Shown here one piece after another: positions 28,611-61,815 of a stretch of 64,000 nt of DNA. The position numbers were made by a program, and so were the translations under genes. Every line of letters begins with the position of its first letter. Within the stretch, counting starts at the first letter, position 1. Source of the stretch: Octopus vulgaris (lineage: Eukaryota); contig OX597841.1 of the NCBI GenBank assembly GCA_951406725.2, forward strand, positions 18,848,001 to 18,912,000, given 5' to 3'. The notes beneath the pieces were generated by a model, which saw only the letters and a program-made list of their open reading frames with translations, ran no database searches and was not told the DNA's origin.

Positions 28611-29117
28611 CATCATCATCATTGTTCGACCGTGGTCGAGACAATGGAATTTACCATGCTACGCCAGACTTCACGGTCCATCATGGCATTACGGAGGTCC
28701 TGTTGCTGGATGCCTGTATCCCTGGAGATTACATCAGGGTAGGAGAGTGTGCGCCCTCTGGTATTGCGAGTAGATGGCTTCCAGAGGAGAAGAGTAGAAA
28801 TTGCCTCCTTTTTCAGCTCTACAACAATGTCCAGCAAACTGGACTCTCCTACCTTTCACAAGAGATGACACAGGTGGTAGTTTCCCATATATTTGCATTT
28901 TGGTTGGATGACGCTTCCACGAGAGATTTTGAGCTCTCATAAGTAGGCAAGTGTAGGTTCCATCCAACCACCTCTCAGGCTTCTTTGATAACGTCCAGGT
29001 TTCTGAGCCATAGAGTAGAATTGGTTCGACTGCGGCTTTGAAGATTTCAAGTCTGAAGTCTCTACTTAGATTTGATGACCAGATCTTATGCATGTCATTA
29101 CAGGCTGACCAGGCCAC
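28611..29117 (-). mobile_element. RTE-clade LINE 3' fragment
   Basis: [10 protein letters not shown] motif and (TGA)n tail. Confidence 0.88.
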
Positions 29118-48393: not shown

Positions 48394-48697
48394 ATGAGGT
48401 AATCAGATTGGATGGTTCATATTTATAGATATTTATTTATATATTACATTTTTTACATATATATCTATCATATCATTCAGATCATATCATTCGGATTATT
48501 AGCGCTTTCTCCCAATCCAGTGGGGTTTTCAATTGAAAACCCCACTGGATTGGGAGAAAGCGCTAATAATCCGAATGATATGATAGATATATATGTAAAA
48601 AATGTAATATATAAATAAATATCTATAAATATGAACCATCCAATCTGATTACCTCATTTTCTCTAATATATAATACCTGTACATCATCTCCAAACCT

Positions 48698-48789
<92 letters not shown>

Positions 48790-51700
48790 AAATAAGCAAC
48801 AAGGATACCCAGAGGTAATGCAGTACGATCGTTTCATGCGACTCTATTTAATTGAACAATGCAATCATTGCATCAATTTTAAAATGCAGAGCAATCCTCA
48901 GCTGCATAAAAGTATAGAATTTAGTTAAATTCGTAAGACTCGTGTGTATAATTTTATCCAAAATCTCCAAAAGGATAAGGAGATAGACAAAGAACATGTT
49001 TTTCCAACATCACAGTTGAAATATTTTTATGCAGCTGAAGATTGCTCTACATTTTAAGTTGATGTAATACTTGCATTGTTCAATTAAATGGAGTCGCATG
49101 AAACGATCGTACTGCATTACCTCTGGATATCCTTGTTGCTTATTTTGATTATAATAATCTTATTTTAAATTATATGGATAATACCCTACTAAATTTTGCT
49201 GCCTTCAACTTAAGTACCATATTCATCTGAATCTATATATATATATATATATACACATCATCATCTTCATTCCACTTTCCATACTGACATGAGTTGATAT
49301 ATATATTTAAATGCATATATGTATATCTTTGTTGGTGAAGGCTTGTTGGCTGCTATGAGAATTTGACTGGTGCTTCCACTAGCTTTGGCACGGTGCAAAT
49401 GACTGGAGGAGTTTCTGAATACATACTTTTCGAAAACGACGATCCTGCGGAAATATTCGAGCTGTTATCAAGGATGCAAGACATGAACTCGATGTTTTCG
49501 TGTGCCATTGTAAGTATTCGTCTCTGTCGGTTTTTGTTTGTGTGTGTACACATAGATTCATATATCGCCGTGATCACCGTCACCGTGACCGATCAGCCTA
49601 TCAGATGTTGCTACACATCGCTGGTCACAATGCGCTTCGTATTGTTTTAGCCTTCAAATGATGCCACCCCCACTGGCTAAGCGAGCAGGCCAACAGAAGA
49701 AAGAGTGAGAGAAAGTTGTGGCGAAAGTGTACAGCAGGGATCGCCACCACCCCCTGCTGGAGCCTCGTGGAGCTTTTAGGTGTTTTCGCTCAATAAACAC
49801 TCACAACGCTCGGTCTGGGAATCGAAACCACGACCCTACGACCGCGAGTCTGCTGCCCTAACCACTGGGCCATTGTACCTCCACAGATTCATATATATAC
49901 ACATGTATATAATTTACAAAATGAGGGCAGAAGAAAAATTCTAATGCTAAATATGCCGAAAAAAAGACAAAAATTGTCAATAACCATTATAATTTATGCG
50001 TCTCGAAAATTATAAATTATAATGGTTATTGACAATTTTTGTCTTTTTTTCAGCATATTTGGCATCAGAATTTTTCTTCTGCCCTCATTTTGTAAATTAT
50101 TTATGAATTTAACCTTTAGAGGTATTTTTTTGATATGCTGGCCATTGATAAAAATTTTTCCCGAAAAAAATTTTTATCCTACATTAGTTATACACATGTA
50201 TATATATATATATATATAACTCCAAGAAAGTTAGGGGTTGTGAATCCAACCAAGGGATAATATCCATCCAATATACTGTTGGTAGAATACCCAATTATTA
50301 AAACACAAGTGTTTTTTTATTGCATTGCAATTAACTCATTTATTGTATTAGATGGGTGAAGGTAAAGAGATATCTTACCATTAATTTATATTGCAGCTAA
50401 TTAGAAAATATCTGTTCGTAATGAAAGCATTAACTATACTGAGAAGTAATGTTTATCGCCCCTCCAACATAGCTGTTCCATAACAACCAATGTCACTACC
50501 ATTTTAACACCAGAGGGATGCCTCATCCAGATGCAGACTGCACCCCTGATATATATTGCAAGCAGGGGAGATAACCTCTACCATCTTTCAGCAATGATGG
50601 TGTATATATATATATTGCTGGGAGATGGTAGAGAGCGCTTCGAGGTGATCGGAGAACAAGTCTGGCATATGTACGGAAAGCTCGTAGGGAAGACCATTCA
50701 AATGGGGTAACTTGTGCCTCGTGTAGCCCACAAGGGCATTCGACTCAGTGTTCAACGTTACCGGCCACCTCTCGGAAGCAGTGGAGGCCTTCGACCCCTT
50801 GCACATTTTATAAGTTTAGGGCAGAAAGCTCGCAAATGGACAACTCCGCAAACGAAACAATGCGGCCTTCTGCCCTCAGTCATTATGTGCAATACCGTCC
50901 CCTTTTGGGGACGGATGTGGTCCGGGATTCTTTTGAAGTTTTCGGGTTTGATCTGGCTGAGTATCTCCAGATCCATTCCGGACCAATCCTCCCTGGCAGT
51001 TTTTGTCAAAATTATTGAGACGTTATCTGACCCTTGCTCGATTACGCATCCTAGAAGCCACCATATGTCAAGTCCTGGTGGACACCCGCTATTTTTTTTC
51101 TCATAGGTGATGGGTACATAACGACCTTGCTGGTTTTGCAAGGGGTCATTGAGTGCCTCATAGCGAGGGCTTCTGACTTAAAACGCAGCGAAATGGTGCC
51201 GAATTTGTCCTACCCTCACTGTGTACTCAGTATCATCCCTGATACATCTCAGCACAGCTTCAATATCTGCCTTTGCTGTTTTTGCTGGGTTTCTTTGTTT
51301 CTGTTGAAATGCATTTGAAAGGAACAGTTTTTTTTTTCTCCACTGTTTCAGTTGCCACTTTTGGTATGGTTATGTTGGCCCACGTTCGTTTATGCTTGAC
51401 GAGCATCCATGCCCGAAAGGTCGGCTGGAGGTGGCGAATGCAGACATCGCTTCTGTCATCTACTACAGTTTGACCGCCGTCCCTTGCCCCCATTTGCGCC
51501 TCGCCAAGTTGGAGCACCCCCTCTTCAAATTCTTGTAGAGAAGACAGGTTCCATTGCTGAGGTCACTCATCAGCTGCCAACACTCTCTACGCAGAGGGAT
51601 GGGCATGCCGTGGCTAATGATGCGCAGACATGCACTAAGGCTGGGGCATCTCCAGATATTCTGCCTAAATGGTGAATAGGTGTGGTCACCGTTTGTCAAA

Positions 51701-53401: not shown

Positions 53402-54874
53402 TAGTCTTATTTTTATATCGTGCTTTCACTTCATTACCGAGCACAGCTCTGTGTGCCTTGGGTATGTGTTGTGGTTTGTTGTGATTCTCTTATTTTCACT
53501 GTATTGAAAGTGTTTTATGTAGGATGTGTGCGTTATCTAATAGTGCAATTTTCTGTATGTTATATATATTTGTTAGTCCTGGTGTTTTTGTTATGTATTT
53601 GTCTGAATATTTTTTTATCATACCTAATGCACCTACTATGATAGGAATTGTTTCTGTTTTTAGACTCCACATTCGATTTACCACCATTTCCAGATCTTTG
53701 TATTTTGAAAGTTTCTCCATTATACTACTACTACTACTACAACAACAATTACTACTACTACTACTTTACTTCCTTTTATTTGTCTCATTCAGTTAGGTGC
53801 TGGAGAAACTACCGAAGGTGAAACAAAGGAAGGCCTCTTTACAATACATGCTTATTGCTTAATAAAACTTATGAAGGTAAGTTGTTAATCTTCTCACCTT
53901 TTCGCACCTTTCCTTTATCAATTTTAATCAGCAAACCACAAAACAAAACCAACAGAAGCAGAGCATGCGGCCCTTAAGGCTAAACCCAGTTTCTCAAAAT
54001 GGCTTCTCAAGGATCGTCTGTTTTATTTCGCCAACTTTTATCCAATGGCCTTTTCTTTCGTCTTTTATTTGTGTCAGTCACTGGAGGGCGGTCATGCTAC
54101 AGCACCACCTGGAAGAGTTTCTAGTCTAACGAATTGACCTCCAACCACAAATATATATTTATGTGTGCGTGCGCGCGCGCGCGTGTGTATAGAGAGAGAG
54201 GGAGGGAGAGAGACAGACAGACAGATAAATTGATAAATAGACAGATAGATATATTCATACACACCCATACACACATACCGTGCCTGAGAAAGGGGGTGGT
54301 GGTGATGTTGATCATGATGGTCAAGATGATGATGATGATGATGATGATAATGTTAGTGATGATGATTATGATGATGATTATGATGATGATGAGGATAATA
54401 ACGATCATGATGATGATGATGATGAGGATGTGTATAATTATGAAGGGATAACGACAATGATGATCATGAGGAGGAGGAGGAGGAGGAAGAGGAAGAGCAT
54501 GGGGGAAGAGGAGGAGGCGGAGGAGGTGGAGCGATGTCTGTATGTGTGCATGTGAGTACAGAGCACTCTGTCTGTTTGCAGGTTCAATACCAAGGAAAGG
54601 AGGTTGGCCTTGTTAAACTGAGAAATCCATGGGGCAAAAAGGAGTGGAATGGACCCTGGAGTGATTCGTAAGTAAAACATTCACAAACTGAATGCCAGGA
54701 ATATTCGACCAGGTTCACTTTCTCATGCATCGTACTCTCGCACACACCCTGTGTATACACACACACACACACACACATGTGTTTATGCATAAATGTGTTT
54801 ATGTGTACATATATATATATATATTGTTATTTCGGAATGGTCATATTGCCAGTTTAGCCAACAAATATTTAAAC

Positions 54875-54943
<69 letters not shown>

Positions 54944-55464
54944 ATAATTAAGGATAACCTCTTAATAAGGAATCTTAACAAGAAATTATCAGGTAGATAG
55001 CGTGAAAAACCTCATAAGAGAAAAATTTCGAAAATAATTCTTTCTTATTGAACATATTAATTTATATTATATAGAGGGCATTATTACATATAAATGCCTC
55101 ACGCTAAGAGGGACATAAGTCATTTCTACCAAAAATTTTACTAATCATACCCAATGCAATTTTTCAAAGCAAGACATTTAAAAAATGAATTTAGTCTTGT
55201 ATCACCTGTGATTTCGCACTCACCGCAGGTGATATAAGACTAAATTCATTTTTTAAATGTCTTGCTTTGAAAAATTGCATTGGGTATGATTAGTAAAATT
55301 TTTGGTAGAAATGACTTATGTCCCTCTTAGTGTGAGGCATTTATATGTAATAATGCCCTCTATATAATATAAATTAATATATATATATATATATACATAT
55401 GTGTGTATGTGCGTACATAAACACATACATAATACATACATACATACATACATACATACATACA

Positions 55465-55551: not shown

Positions 55552-58392
55552 TAAATTAGAGATAAAACCACCATTAGGAAAATCAAACAATGAAAAACAT
55601 AAACCGAAACATAAAAATAAACATAATTAATAAAATATACAAAATATATAGAATATAAGATTTAAAATTTAAATTATTTAAATTTAAAATTTTTTATTTA
55701 TATTTATAAATTTTTCTATTTTTTAAATTTTAAATTAATAAATTTATATACATATATATCCATATATATATATGTATATAAAAATTCAGATTACGATATA
55801 TGTAAACAAAGTTTGTTTTTAGAAGTGCTGAGATGTATTGAAAGATACAGGTAAGGAAATGATATATTTCCAAACGCAGAATAATTCGTGAGTAGGCAAT
55901 TTAGCATAACGGTAAAGCACGTGACCGGAAATCACAGATAAGTTCGAGTCTCATGTTTGGCCGCTGACAAACTTTTCTGCAAAATATGGATACATTTTGT
56001 AACATGAAATTCGTCACACTATTTTTATTTTCATTTCATTTCATCTAGTTTCAGCTCACGAGCTGTGGCCATGCTGGGGCACCGCCATTTGGTGTTGCTA
56101 CATGATTTTACTTCACGAATGGTTTTTAGCAATTGTCATTTGGTGCATGAGAGAGTTCGATGCAGCTGCCCTCATCTGCACCTCCTGCCGTGAAGTTGGT
56201 TCATCTGGGACACCTGACAGGAAGAGATCCAGTTTTATTTTAAAGACATCTGCATCCACCCCATGCAGGTCTCTCAGGTTCTTCGGGGGGATATTGAAGA
56301 GCTGTGGGTCTCTGAAGCCCAGGCTATCACAGTATCTTGTCCTACACCTTGATGGCAAATTTGGAGTCCTTGGCACTCTGCAGTGGTGCCCAGTTCTGGC
56401 ATTTGTGTAACTATATTTCAACAATACGAAAATGTTATTCATTGAAGTAAGCACCATTACAATCAACACATTTCTGCCAACGAGTTACAAGTTTGTTTAT
56501 TCCAGTAACATAATAATATAGAGTTCTGGGCTTGATGAACTTTTTGAATGCATTTTCAGCATCGGTTTCTCCTCCCACAGGAAACCATCAAAGTGCTTCA
56601 AAAAGTGGTAGTTGGTAGGAGAAAAGTCTGTGGAATAAGCTGGGTGAAGAAGAACTTCGTAGCCAAGTTCCCTCAACTGCTGGGGCATCATTAGCGAAAC
56701 ATGTGGTCAAACATTGTAATGAAGAATGATTGGCCTTATTCTGTTGACCAGTCTGGAATGGAGGAGTAGCAGTTTTTCATTCATTTTGGCAATTTCATAG
56801 CCATCATCATCATCATCTTCATTGTTCGACCGTGGTCGAGACAATGGAATTTACCATGCTACGCCAGACTTCACGGTCCATCATAGCATTACGGAGATCC
56901 TGTTGCTGGATGCCTGTATCCCTGGAGATTACATCAGGGTAGGAGAGTGTGCACCCTCTGGTATTGCGAGTAGATGGCTTCCAGAGGAGAAAAGTAGAAA
57001 TTGCCTCCTTTTTCAGCTCTACAACAATGTCCAGCAAACTGGACTCTCCTACCTTCCACAAGAGATGACACAGGTGGTAATTTCCCATATATTTGCATTT
57101 TGTTTGGATGACGCTTCCACGAGAGATTTTGAGTTCTCATAAGGAGGCAAGTGTAGGTTCCATCCAACCGCCTCTCAAGCTTCTTTGATAACGTCCAGGT
57201 TTCTGAGCCATATAGTAGAATTGGTTCTGTGGCTTTGAAGATTTTAAGTTTGAAGTCTCTACTTAGATTTGATGACCAGATCTTATGCATGTCATTACAG
57301 GCTGACCAGGCCATACCCTTTATAATTAGAAAATCTCTTTCAGATGATGAAGTTCCATCCAACCGCCTCTCAAGTTTCTTAGATAACGTCCAGGTTTCTG
57401 AGCCATAGAGTAGAATTGGTTCGACTGTGGCTTTGAAGATTTTAAGTTTGAAGTCTCTACTTAGATTTGATGACCAGATCTTATGCATGTCATTACAGGC
57501 CATATGTCATTCATGGCCATATATTTCTGTCGTAATGGTTTTCCTGGTTTTAAGAAGTTATAGGGAATGAGTGCAGCAGTACACCACCAAACAGACACCA
57601 TAAGCATCTTTGGGAAGACCTCAGGCTTAGGGAAGGTTTTACATGCTTCTTTTTAGCCCAACCCTGCAAAGAACTTTTTATTATTATTATTGTACAGAAT
57701 CTACGTTCATCGCAAGTTACAATATGGTCGAGAAATGGATTAACTGGTTACGGAGAAGAAGCGACGAGCTAAGTTCATATTGGCACATTTTCTGATTTTA
57801 ATTCAAATCGTGTGGTACCCATTTGTTGAGCTTTTTTGATTTTCTGATCGCATACAAATGGTTGCTAACTGTTTTCTGGCTAACCTGAAATTCCTTCGCC
57901 AGTTCTCGAGTGGTCTTACGTGGATCTCTCTTAATGTCCATCATCAATGACAAATGGGCATCCACTATGCTCACGATCAGGTCTCCGCTGTGAAATCATT
58001 TAAACCATTTTCAAGTTAACCACTCACTGCTCATTTCCTCACCAAACATTTCATTGATATCGCGATGTCGTTTTTTGAAGCTGAATAGCAAAATTGCTCG
58101 AATATCGCTCTTTGACAGTTCCATTTCAGATGATGGCAAGAATGGTGAAAAAAAATCAATGTTAATTTATTGATGCAATTAGGCTAGTCTATGTCTGTAT
58201 TATCCGACCAAAGGAAAAAATGTTTCAAAAATATTCAAAACTCTACAAAAATCCGGTACAAATTCTTCCTGGTTCAAAACGTTGCTTACTTTTTACTCAA
58301 CCTGATACATACATACATACATACATACATACATACATACATACATACATACACACATACATACACACATACATACACACATACATATATAT

Positions 58393-60045: not shown

Positions 60046-61815
60046 GAACAAACTTACTTAGAAGTGGATGCGTGCGTTCCGTCATATAATAACAAATTAA
60101 TAAATAAAATACATGCGTATATACATACATATATGCACGTACCTACCTCTACATGTATATATACGAGGGACGTTCAATAAGTAATGCCTCTGACCCACTT
60201 GCAGTTGTTTGATATAGCTGAAATTTTGCATGTGCAATCATTTATATCTCTATAGAGTAAGTGGCACTGAATTAATTGTGGTTTCTGATTTACAGGTGTT
60301 TGAACCGAGTCAAGTGTTAAATGGAGCCTGTTGAGTGTCGAGCAGTGATCCGGTTTTTGTATTTGAAAGGACGCACACCACGGGAGACTTTTGATCAAAT
60401 GAAAGTAACTTATGGTGATGATGCCCCATCATATGACCTTGTAAAACGCTGGCATCGTGAATTCAAACATGGTCGGAACTCTGTGGAAACAGCTCCCAGA
60501 TCTGGTCGCCCCCTTCTGCCATTGATGAGGCATCTGTCCGTCAAGTTGAGGCTGCCATTTTGGAAGATCGACGCATAACTATTCGCCAAATAGCCCATGA
60601 GGTTAAAGTTAGTACCGGGTCTGTGTAAACTATCATTCATGACCATTTGCATATGCAAAAGGTATCTGCCAGATGGATTCCCAGGTTGCTCACGCCTTTC
60701 CAGAAGCAAGAACGTGTCGAGTACTCGAGGGTGAATTTGGAGATGTGCCAAGAAGATGAATCAAAATTTTTCAAAAGACTGATTACACAGGATGAAACCT
60801 GGGTCCATCACGATGATCCAGAGACCAAAGCCCAGTCAATGCAGTGGAAGCACCGTGACTCACCCCCTCCAAAGAAGGCAAGGGTGCAGCCCTCCGCTGG
60901 CAAGGTCATGCTCACAGTCTTCTGGGACCAGGACGGAGTAGTGATGACAGATTTCCTGGCAAAGGGTACCACGATTGCAGGAGCCTATTATGCTTCACTT
61001 TTGAGGAAATTAAGAGAAGTTATCAAAATCAAGAGGCGGGGCAAGATCAGCAAAGGCATCCTCCTCCTGCAGGACAACGCTCCGGTTCACAACTCGCTTG
61101 TCGCCAGATCAGAAGCACAGGCGTATGGCTATGAACTCCTCCCCCATCCTCCTACTTTCCTGACCTTGCACCCTCTGATTTTCACCTCTTCGCAGTTATG
61201 AAGTTGTTTTTGAAAAGAAAGCGTTTCCCAGATGATGCAGCCTTGATTTCTGAAGTCGCGTTCAGGTTGGAGGACCAAGCTGGGGTCTTCTATAAAAACG
61301 GTCTCCAGAGCTGCATCAAACAATGGGAGAAATGCGTAACTCTGGGTGGTTCCTATGTAGAAAAAGACTAATAACTGTGCCAAGTTTCGTTACTCTACTG
61401 CTATGGGAAGTGGGTCAGGGGCATTACTTATTGAACGCCCCTCGTACATGCATATATGGGTACAGGACACCAAAAAGACGTCGAACACAATGAGAAACGA
61501 AAACATAGACACAAAACCAAGGAAATGGACATTTTTCTTGAATAACGAAAAAATAGAGTAAAGGACATACAAAACAAGGAAAATACCCCTTCTTCAGTCG
61601 CCATGGTTTCATCCACTCCGCGTTTACTCTATTTTTTCGTTGTTTAAGAAAAATGTCCATTTCCTTGGGTTTGTGTCTATGCTTTCGTTTCTCATTGTGT
61701 TCGACGTTTATTTTGGTGTCCTGTACCCATAAATGCATGTATATATACATGTAGAGGTAGGTACGTACATATATGTATGTATATATGCATATGTTTTATT
61801 TATTAATATGTTATT

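What the first reader, a model, noticed from the sequence alone, without database searches (positions are those of the whole stretch)
48786..49149. Mirror pair of intact hammerheads in calpain intron 4, with the sense copy ~230 nt upstream of exon 5
Seen: an inverted repeat (arms ~48786-48911 and ~49025-49149) in which both arms keep a canonical core (CTGAGGA on -, CTGAAGA on +), the 6-bp stem I ATGCAG/CTGCAT, the CGATCG palindrome and a GUA site. The + copy lies in the calpain pre-mRNA. Inference: the upstream antisense arm can pair with and mask the ribozyme, so long-hairpin folding (a potential ADAR substrate) competes with self-cleavage. This could be a safety catch or a regulatory switch near a weak acceptor.
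Basis: partly seen in the sequence, partly recalled or inferred. Interest (0 to 1): 0.72.

Follow-up and report, generated by a model that had tools for sequence, protein, structure and literature searches.

The report
Back-to-back Penelope retrotransposon stumps
The mirror pair is two truncated tail ends of a very common Penelope-type jumping gene lying back to back in a calpain intron, a known footprint that recurs all over this genome; its hammerhead is predicted to be locked in the hairpin and is likely idle, not a regulatory switch.

Summary
The inverted repeat and both hammerhead motifs are real, and the calpain context is right. They are two 5'-truncated 3' ends of a Hydra-clade Penelope-like element (PLE), joined head to head at 49019-49021 inside a (TA)n tract; the 'spacer' is element sequence. 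A near-full copy (L082) links this hammerhead to a reverse transcriptase/endonuclease ORF. The genome holds 3,446 intact-core motifs of this type; among the first 100 listed, 10 head-to-head pairs lie within 1 kb and no tail-to-tail pair does. Paired arms always carry one short and one long 3' end, the published PLE insertion signature. The ribozyme is not canonical: U·U replaces the G10.1-C11.1 pair across the family, and stem III is a 2-bp dimer-type palindrome. The hairpin is predicted about 110 kcal/mol more stable than the ribozyme fold: a sink, not a switch. I found no sign of selection on this pair. Cleavage, editing and intronic orientation bias were not measurable. Inverted PLE ends with opposing hammerheads are in print, and this scan noted them before on other DNA. 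Ordinary; the family-level tail rule is of mild mechanistic interest.

The parts
48702..48787 (.). (TA)n tract, left remnant of the likely target site
   Evidence: sequence; family 3' ends abut (TA)n or other microsatellites
48786..49018 (-). Left arm: 5'-truncated PLE 3' end, element positions about -121 to +114 relative to C3; short 3' end
48818..48907 (-). Hammerhead motif on the - strand (C3 48901, A17 48824); antisense in the calpain pre-mRNA, so not a ribozyme there
48916..49018 (-). 'Spacer': element sequence upstream of the hammerhead, present only in the left arm; forms the hairpin loop
49019..49021 (.). Head-to-head junction of the two 5'-truncated ends (flush, 0-2 nt)
49021..49234 (+). 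Right arm: 5'-truncated PLE 3' end from position -14; long 3' end including the tail
49029..49117 (+). Type I hammerhead motif: stem I 49029-34/49112-17, CUGAAGA 49035-41, 58-nt stem II domain 49042-99 closed by U·U, GAAA 49100-03, palindrome 49104-09, predicted cut after 49111
49150..49234 (+). Tail found on one arm only (about 85 nt here, about 105 nt in family copies)
49234..49253 (.). (TA)n tract, right remnant of the likely target site
   Evidence: sequence
47853..48012 (+). Calpain coding exon 4
   Evidence: motifs and splice sites
49341..49509 (+). Calpain coding exon 5
   Evidence: Pfam PF00648; contig of run X10 fits exactly 49341-49509

Best explanation
48786-49234 consists of two 5'-truncated 3' ends of an abundant Hydra-clade Penelope-like retrotransposon joined head to head between (TA)n tracts, likely left by one insertion, and its sense-strand hammerhead is predicted to be buried in the arm-arm hairpin and is likely idle. 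Shown: family membership, link to an RT/endonuclease ORF, recurrence of the geometry, two fixed 3' ends, one per arm. Inferred: the element's enzyme cut both strands of a (TA)n site and primed DNA synthesis on each strand from a different start site in the RNA (short and long 3' ends); both copies stopped early and were joined at their truncation points. The hammerhead sits about 115-220 nt from the 3' ends, so any pair of arms longer than that carries two opposing hammerheads automatically. In the calpain pre-mRNA the hairpin would form as soon as the second arm is made, would probably be edited by ADAR like other young inverted repeats, and would be spliced out; the copy decays neutrally.
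For: Family: 1,807 first-look candidates for the + arm; 3,446 exact intact-core motifs, control 0; 673 with the window's U·U type. PLE link: walking upstream reaches an AT-rich 3' region, endonuclease and RT remnants; L082 has the ORF remnant (62% to intact L083 over 453 aa), the hammerhead at its 3' end and an inverted hammerhead-bearing piece at its 5' end; L086 has direct repeats with hammerheads on both sides of the ORF. Geometry: 15 of 30 loci flagged head to head (one, L002, a simple-repeat artefact; the window is among the rest), 4 of 18 in a set chosen on upstream sequence; 10 head-to-head and 0 tail-to-tail neighbours within 1 kb among 100 listed motifs, 0.1 expected. One short plus one long end in 13 of 13 pairs with both ends typed (6 of 19 flagged loci left out as truncated, complex or artefact), 11 of 11 and 10 of 10 in two further, partly overlapping samples. 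Arms of 14 pairs share subfamily markers more than random copies (p about 0.01). Neutrality: arm-arm divergence 8.7% against 8.7% for random copies and a median 5.8% for 10 pairs; core columns 9 of 264 changed against 103 of 2,184 elsewhere, p=0.43. Folding. Literature: PMC8557442 (inverted 5'-truncated copy, one-sided tail, Hydra clade, (TA)n targets), PMC4209133 (dual hammerheads 100-700 bp apart on opposite strands; no monomer cleavage), PMC3846280 (head-to-head most frequent), PMC11167929 (both strands cut and extended, two RT start sites, no ribozyme cleavage without the element's protein).
Against: The window's own arms differ at 5 of 10 subfamily-informative sites and share no minor allele, the highest of 14 pairs, which fits two templates or two events better than one template (14% of random pairs reach 5). 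Both arms keep core, stem I and palindrome, which only 8 of 24 copies chosen on upstream sequence and 3 of 11 pairs do: a modest coincidence. No target-site duplication can be read inside (TA)n. Pfam gave no hit for the intact ORF and PDB none for its RT part; PLE identity rests on motifs and visible likeness to the published Hydra alignment plus a weak GIY-YIG-type hit (TIGR01453, E 1.7e-4). Idleness of the ribozyme is predicted, not measured; equilibrium folding ignores kinetics and editing.
Confidence: 0.88

Rival explanations
1. Passive filter: the pair arose as an insertion by-product, but a sense-strand hammerhead in an intron is tolerated more often when an upstream antisense arm masks it, so masked copies are over-represented in genes.
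For: Masking is predicted. Retrozymes are reported depleted from introns in Xenopus (10.64898/2026.07.22.740005, passages). Stems covary across sister families: stem I 88% paired against 51% shuffled, 0 of 5,000, so the motif was functional in the lineage.
Against: The motif is dimer-type, lacks G10.1-C11.1 in 63 of 63 family copies and needs the element's protein in the one PLE tested (PMC11167929), so there may be little to mask. Even without the antisense arm, 49020-49255 gives stem I probability about 0.04. Intronic orientation bias was not tested.
Confidence: 0.07
2. Exapted switch: hairpin folding or ADAR editing competes with self-cleavage and tunes calpain exon 5 splicing.
For: Position 229 nt from the acceptor; both cores retained; young inverted repeats are the main ADAR targets in animals (PMC9989829, passages); an intronic ribozyme affecting its host gene is reported for CPEB3 (PMC10274809, search listing only).
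Against: 110 kcal/mol gap; no excess conservation; hundreds of like pairs expected genome-wide; two other long hairpins lie within 1 kb; no sense-strand dimer partner in the window or the next 40 kb.
Confidence: 0.03
3. Two independent insertions, or later gene conversion, made the pair.
For: The arms look like different sublineages.
Against: Flush junction, one short and one long end, and (TA)n on both outer sides match single-event pairs.
Confidence: 0.02

Closest known systems
Hydra clade of Penelope-like elements (Craig et al. 2021, PMC8557442; section 11 read whole, other passages, supplement hits)
   Same: Single ORF with RT and C-terminal endonuclease; RW(K/R), DKT, YRDD, CxCx5C linker, CxxC and CxH around E and N, no CCHH; hammerhead in the terminal repeat; (TA)n targets; inverted 5'-truncated copy; one-sided tail
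   Different: Not Hydra-1_Obim, whose listed hammerhead has a 7-bp stem II with an 8-nt loop; here stem II encloses 58 nt and is closed by U·U; the element is about 6 kb with an asparagine-rich insert and a long AT-rich 3' region (published Hydra elements mostly under 3 kb); the tail is about 105 nt against 30-40 bp
Minimal type I hammerheads of PLE terminal repeats (Cervera and de la Pena 2014, PMC4209133; parts 1-2 of 4 read)
   Same: Type I, short palindromic stem III, dimer-type; opposite-strand pairs 100-700 bp apart described in Schistosoma
   Different: No extra base after A9, no G10.1-C11.1 pair, much longer stem II
Inverted-pLTR insertions of Adineta Penelope elements (PMC3846280, passages) and the PAc in vitro mechanism (PMC11167929, parts 1-2 of 4)
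   Same: Head-to-head inverted ends, tail on one end, two RT start sites, both strands extended, AT-rich targets, N-rich ORF inserts
   Different: No readable target-site duplication here; longer tail; other clade
Non-LTR retrozymes (10.64898/2026.07.22.740005, part 1 of 5 and passages; PMC7229834, listing only)
   Same: PLE-derived type I hammerheads in short repeats
   Different: Retrozymes are tandem head-to-tail units that can dimerise in cis; this pair is inverted and cannot
Host-exapted intronic ribozymes (CPEB3, PMC10274809, listing only; amniote HH9/HH10, recalled)
   Same: Self-cleaving motif in the sense strand of an intron
   Different: Those are single-copy and deeply conserved (recalled); this is one of thousands of decaying copies

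Membership tests
EN+ Penelope-like element | RT ORF linked to the hammerhead-bearing end | tested here: met
   L082, L066, L085 carry ORF remnants and the window's end sequence at 85-93% identity; RT identified by motifs and likeness to the published alignment, not by Pfam
EN+ Penelope-like element | C-terminal GIY-YIG endonuclease | tested here: met
   C-terminal domain of L083, weak TIGR01453 hit E 1.7e-4, below the curated cut-off; remnants in family copies
EN+ Penelope-like element | 5' truncation, fixed 3' ends, one-sided tail, inverted 5'-truncated copy | tested here: met
EN+ Penelope-like element | Direct pseudo-LTRs flanking the ORF | tested here: met
   L086, a sister subfamily 74% alike, and L083/L084; not seen in L082, which has the inverted form
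EN+ Penelope-like element | Target-site duplication | tested here: inconclusive
   both flanks are (TA)n
Hydra clade | RWK, DKT, CxCx5C, no CCHH, CxxC and CxH around E and N | tested here: met
   read in intact sister ORFs L083/L084 (RWR in place of RWK) against section 11; family remnants 54-76% identical to L083 in the RT part
Hydra clade | Insertion into (TA)n | tested here: met
   window flanks and family 3' flanks
Hydra clade | Placement in the RT phylogeny | not tested
   no tree built; reference sequences seen only as cut supplement text
Type I hammerhead ribozyme | CUGANGA, GAAA, UH and stems I-III in type I order | tested here: met
   covariation over 19 stem haplotypes
Type I hammerhead ribozyme | Base pair at 10.1-11.1 (usually G-C) | tested here: not met
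   U·U in both arms and in 61 of 63 family copies, U·C and U·G once each; G-C in L083 and L086
Type I hammerhead ribozyme | Stable stem III as a monomer | tested here: not met
   pair probability 0.005; self-duplex of the palindrome -12.0 kcal/mol
Type I hammerhead ribozyme | Self-cleavage | not testable with these tools
   indirect test inconclusive: about 21 independent copies begin exactly at the cut against 15 at a site 8 nt downstream
Non-LTR retrozyme | Tandem head-to-tail units with a hammerhead each | tested here: not met
   inverted pair only
Exapted intronic ribozyme | Locus-specific conservation | tested here: inconclusive
   no excess conservation within the genome; no distant orthologue available

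The most novel reading that the evidence does not exclude
Head-to-head Hydra insertions are written from two RNA molecules held together by the hammerhead's palindromic stem III: one is copied from the near start site on one DNA strand, the other from a site about 105 nt further out on the other strand. The strict short/long pairing and the window's two arms from different sublineages would be the genomic trace, and the hammerhead would act as a dimerisation signal, which would explain why a lineage that lost G10.1-C11.1 but kept the palindrome still spread to thousands of copies.
Probability: 0.12. Interest if true: 0.6.

Novelty: new member of a known kind. Interest (0 to 1): 0.17.

Why it matters
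For calpain regulation probably not at all. It matters as a caution: opposing hammerheads in animal introns are the default footprint of Penelope-like insertions and number in the hundreds in this genome. At family level there is a small gain: a Hydra-clade family with a roughly 105-nt one-sided tail, a long stem II and a fixed loss of the G10.1-C11.1 pair gives a large natural data set for asking how PLEs build inverted ends and whether their hammerheads need to cut.

Tried and rejected
Rfam at gathering score: 0 matches in the window. Pfam found nothing significant for element fragments or the intact ORF; PDB sequence search 0 hits. I first read the element as Neptune or Nematis from recalled motifs; section 11 of PMC8557442 fits Hydra instead. 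Sequencing runs: no RNA holder listed; only contigs were available, so cleavage, editing, strand and level could not be read; differences over the arms come from other family copies. In vivo cleavage from 5' ends: 29 pattern hits at the cut (4 were internal deletions or mutations, 1 ambiguous through stem I microhomology, 3 duplicates; about 21 left) against 15 of 15 true ends at +85 and 2 of 9 at +95, where a palindrome hides fold-back ends: no clear excess. A cis dimer partner was sought in the window and 40 kb downstream: only a tail-only piece and a 73% antisense copy. Paper searches for octopus + hammerhead + ribozyme and Nematis/Penelope/hammerhead showed no paper on this family; Repbase was not available, so it may be catalogued there. 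Lunse et al. 2017 on dimeric PLE hammerheads was not held and is only recalled; the importance of G10.1-C11.1 rests on PMC4209133 ('highly conserved') and PMC544870 passages (minizymes lacking helix II generally less active), neither of which tests U·U.

Full report
Observation. The inverted repeat is real: 48781-48915 against 49021-49153, 10 differences. A both-strand motif scan of the window returned two hammerhead-like motifs and no others, at the places given. The host gene is a calpain on the + strand (Pfam PF00648); coding exon 4 is 47853-48012 and exon 5 is 49341-49509, and one contig of run X10, whose RNA status is a guess, fits 49341-49509 exactly with 97 other letters before it. The predicted cut is 229 nt before the acceptor. 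The simple repeats and the earlier notes of this scan point to an octopus-like genome; that is an inference.

What it is. The + arm has 1,807 first-look candidates in the genome. Aligning the loci shows that the right copy runs 49021-49234 and the left copy 49018-48786, so the 'spacer' is element sequence and the two copies meet at their truncated 5' ends. Walking upstream through longer copies leads through about 2 kb of AT-rich sequence to endonuclease and reverse-transcriptase remnants. L082 is a near-full copy: ORF remnant, the window's hammerhead at its 3' end, and an inverted hammerhead-bearing piece at its 5' end. L086, a sister subfamily, has hammerhead-bearing direct repeats on both sides of the ORF. 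L083 and L084 hold intact 1,090-aa sister ORFs. Pfam and PDB did not recognise the ORF and NCBIfam gave only a weak GIY-YIG-type hit, but it shows the motifs that define the Hydra clade of Penelope-like elements in PMC8557442 (section 11) and visibly resembles the Hydra alignment in its supplement. No tree was built.

How common the mirror pair is. An exact pattern for core plus palindrome matches 3,446 times, the reversed control 0 times; 673 matches have the window's U·U form. Among the first 100 listed matches, 10 neighbours within 1 kb are head to head and none is tail to tail or tandem, against 0.1 expected; scaled up this is roughly 300-350 such pairs (extrapolation). In loci chosen by likeness to the + arm the script flagged 15 of 30 as head to head (one an artefact), and 4 of 18 in loci chosen on upstream sequence. 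The family has two fixed 3' ends, about +114/118 and +220/225 from C3, both ending at microsatellites. Pairs with both ends typed had one of each in 13 of 13 (6 of 19 flagged loci left out), 11 of 11 and 10 of 10 (samples partly overlapping). The window follows the rule: short left arm, long right arm, (TA)n on both sides. PMC8557442 describes the inverted 5'-truncated copy and the one-sided tail, PMC3846280 calls head-to-head the most frequent form, PMC4209133 reports dual hammerheads 100-700 bp apart on opposite strands, and PMC11167929 shows a PLE enzyme cutting and extending both strands from two RT start sites that bound the tail.

The ribozyme. The motif is a true hammerhead lineage: over 19 stem haplotypes, stem I is 88% paired against 51% in shuffles and stem II 79% against 59%, 0 of 5,000 shuffles reaching either (related sequences, so not a strict probability). 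But in the window's family position 10.1-11.1 is U·U in 61 of 63 copies and never a standard pair, while sister families have G-C. Predicted stem II pairing next to the core is 0.11-0.16 for the + arm alone against 0.85-1.0 for the sisters, and stem III is 0.005 as a monomer. Metazoan PLE hammerheads of this type showed no monomer cleavage and low dimer cleavage (PMC4209133); the anole one cut only with the element's protein, was not needed for insertion, and left no read ends (PMC11167929). The antisense arm cannot be a dimer partner, and no sense partner was found in the window or 40 kb downstream. A genomic test of cutting in vivo was inconclusive: about 21 independent copies begin exactly at the cut against 15 eight bases downstream.

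Masking and function. With both arms the duplex folds at -211 kcal/mol and the hammerhead-constrained fold at -102; stem I probability is 0.0. This supports masking as a physical prediction and speaks against a switch. There is no sign of selection: arm-arm divergence is 8.7%, equal to random copies and above the 5.8% median of 10 pairs; core columns change as often as others in copies chosen on upstream sequence (p=0.43). Against this, only 8 of 24 such copies and 3 of 11 pairs keep core, stem I and palindrome throughout, so the window's retention is a modest coincidence. Long hairpins are plentiful here: two more lie within 1 kb and 14 inverted self-matches of 50 nt or more, this one included, were listed in the window. 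Editing by ADAR would be ordinary for a young inverted repeat (PMC9989829, passages) and could not be measured.

An oddity. Arms of 14 pairs share subfamily markers more than random copies (p about 0.01), yet the window's arms differ at 5 of 10 informative sites and share none. This hints that the two arms were copied from two template RNAs; 14% of random pairs differ as much, so it is a lead only.

Verdict. Observation confirmed, interpretation partly supported (masking predicted; switch unsupported). A known insertion footprint of a Hydra-clade family that I did not find described in the papers searched. The scan's own notes record the same arrangement in other genomes. Supplements of the bioRxiv retrozyme preprint were closed and may list related families. 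Interest 0.17.

Noticed in passing
window 48391-48660 and 49906-50103: Two further hairpins flank the finding: arms of 95 nt at 98% and 92 nt at 96%; larger ones at 42298-42757 and 55054-55380.
   Followed up: no
window 41948-42068 (+) and L088:6749-6952 (-): A tail-only piece (80%) and a diverged antisense copy (73%) of the same family in other introns of this calpain gene.
   Followed up: partly
L083:900-4172, L084:4172-7441: Intact 1,090-aa Hydra-type ORFs, 98.7% identical to each other, with a long asparagine-rich insert and a hammerhead with a perfect 7-bp stem II; many identical copies suggest a recently active family.
   Followed up: partly
G000:C29:24631411-24632471 (L135-L137): Three tandem copies of the hammerhead end at a 460-nt period, retrozyme-like and able in principle to dimerise in cis.
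   Followed up: no
L183, L184, L196, L198, L201: 5 of 29 copies stop matching the references at -102/-103, four of them after the same upstream sequence ending in AG; a subfamily with another upstream part or an intron boundary.
   Followed up: no
L069 minus strand, 584-aa frame: An open RT plus GIY-YIG frame of another, Poseidon-like Penelope family next to the Hydra copy (clade name from recalled motifs).
   Followed up: no
window 1474-1824, 28737-29117, 56937-57506, 3342-3833, 53499-53765, 61135-61368: Fragments that look like RTE-type and R4/NeSL-type retrotransposons and a mariner transposase (names recalled).
   Followed up: no
L092, L093, L097, L101, L109, L111: Several unrelated families share the same stem III palindrome with different stems I and II, all with a 52-66 nt stem II domain.
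   Followed up: partly
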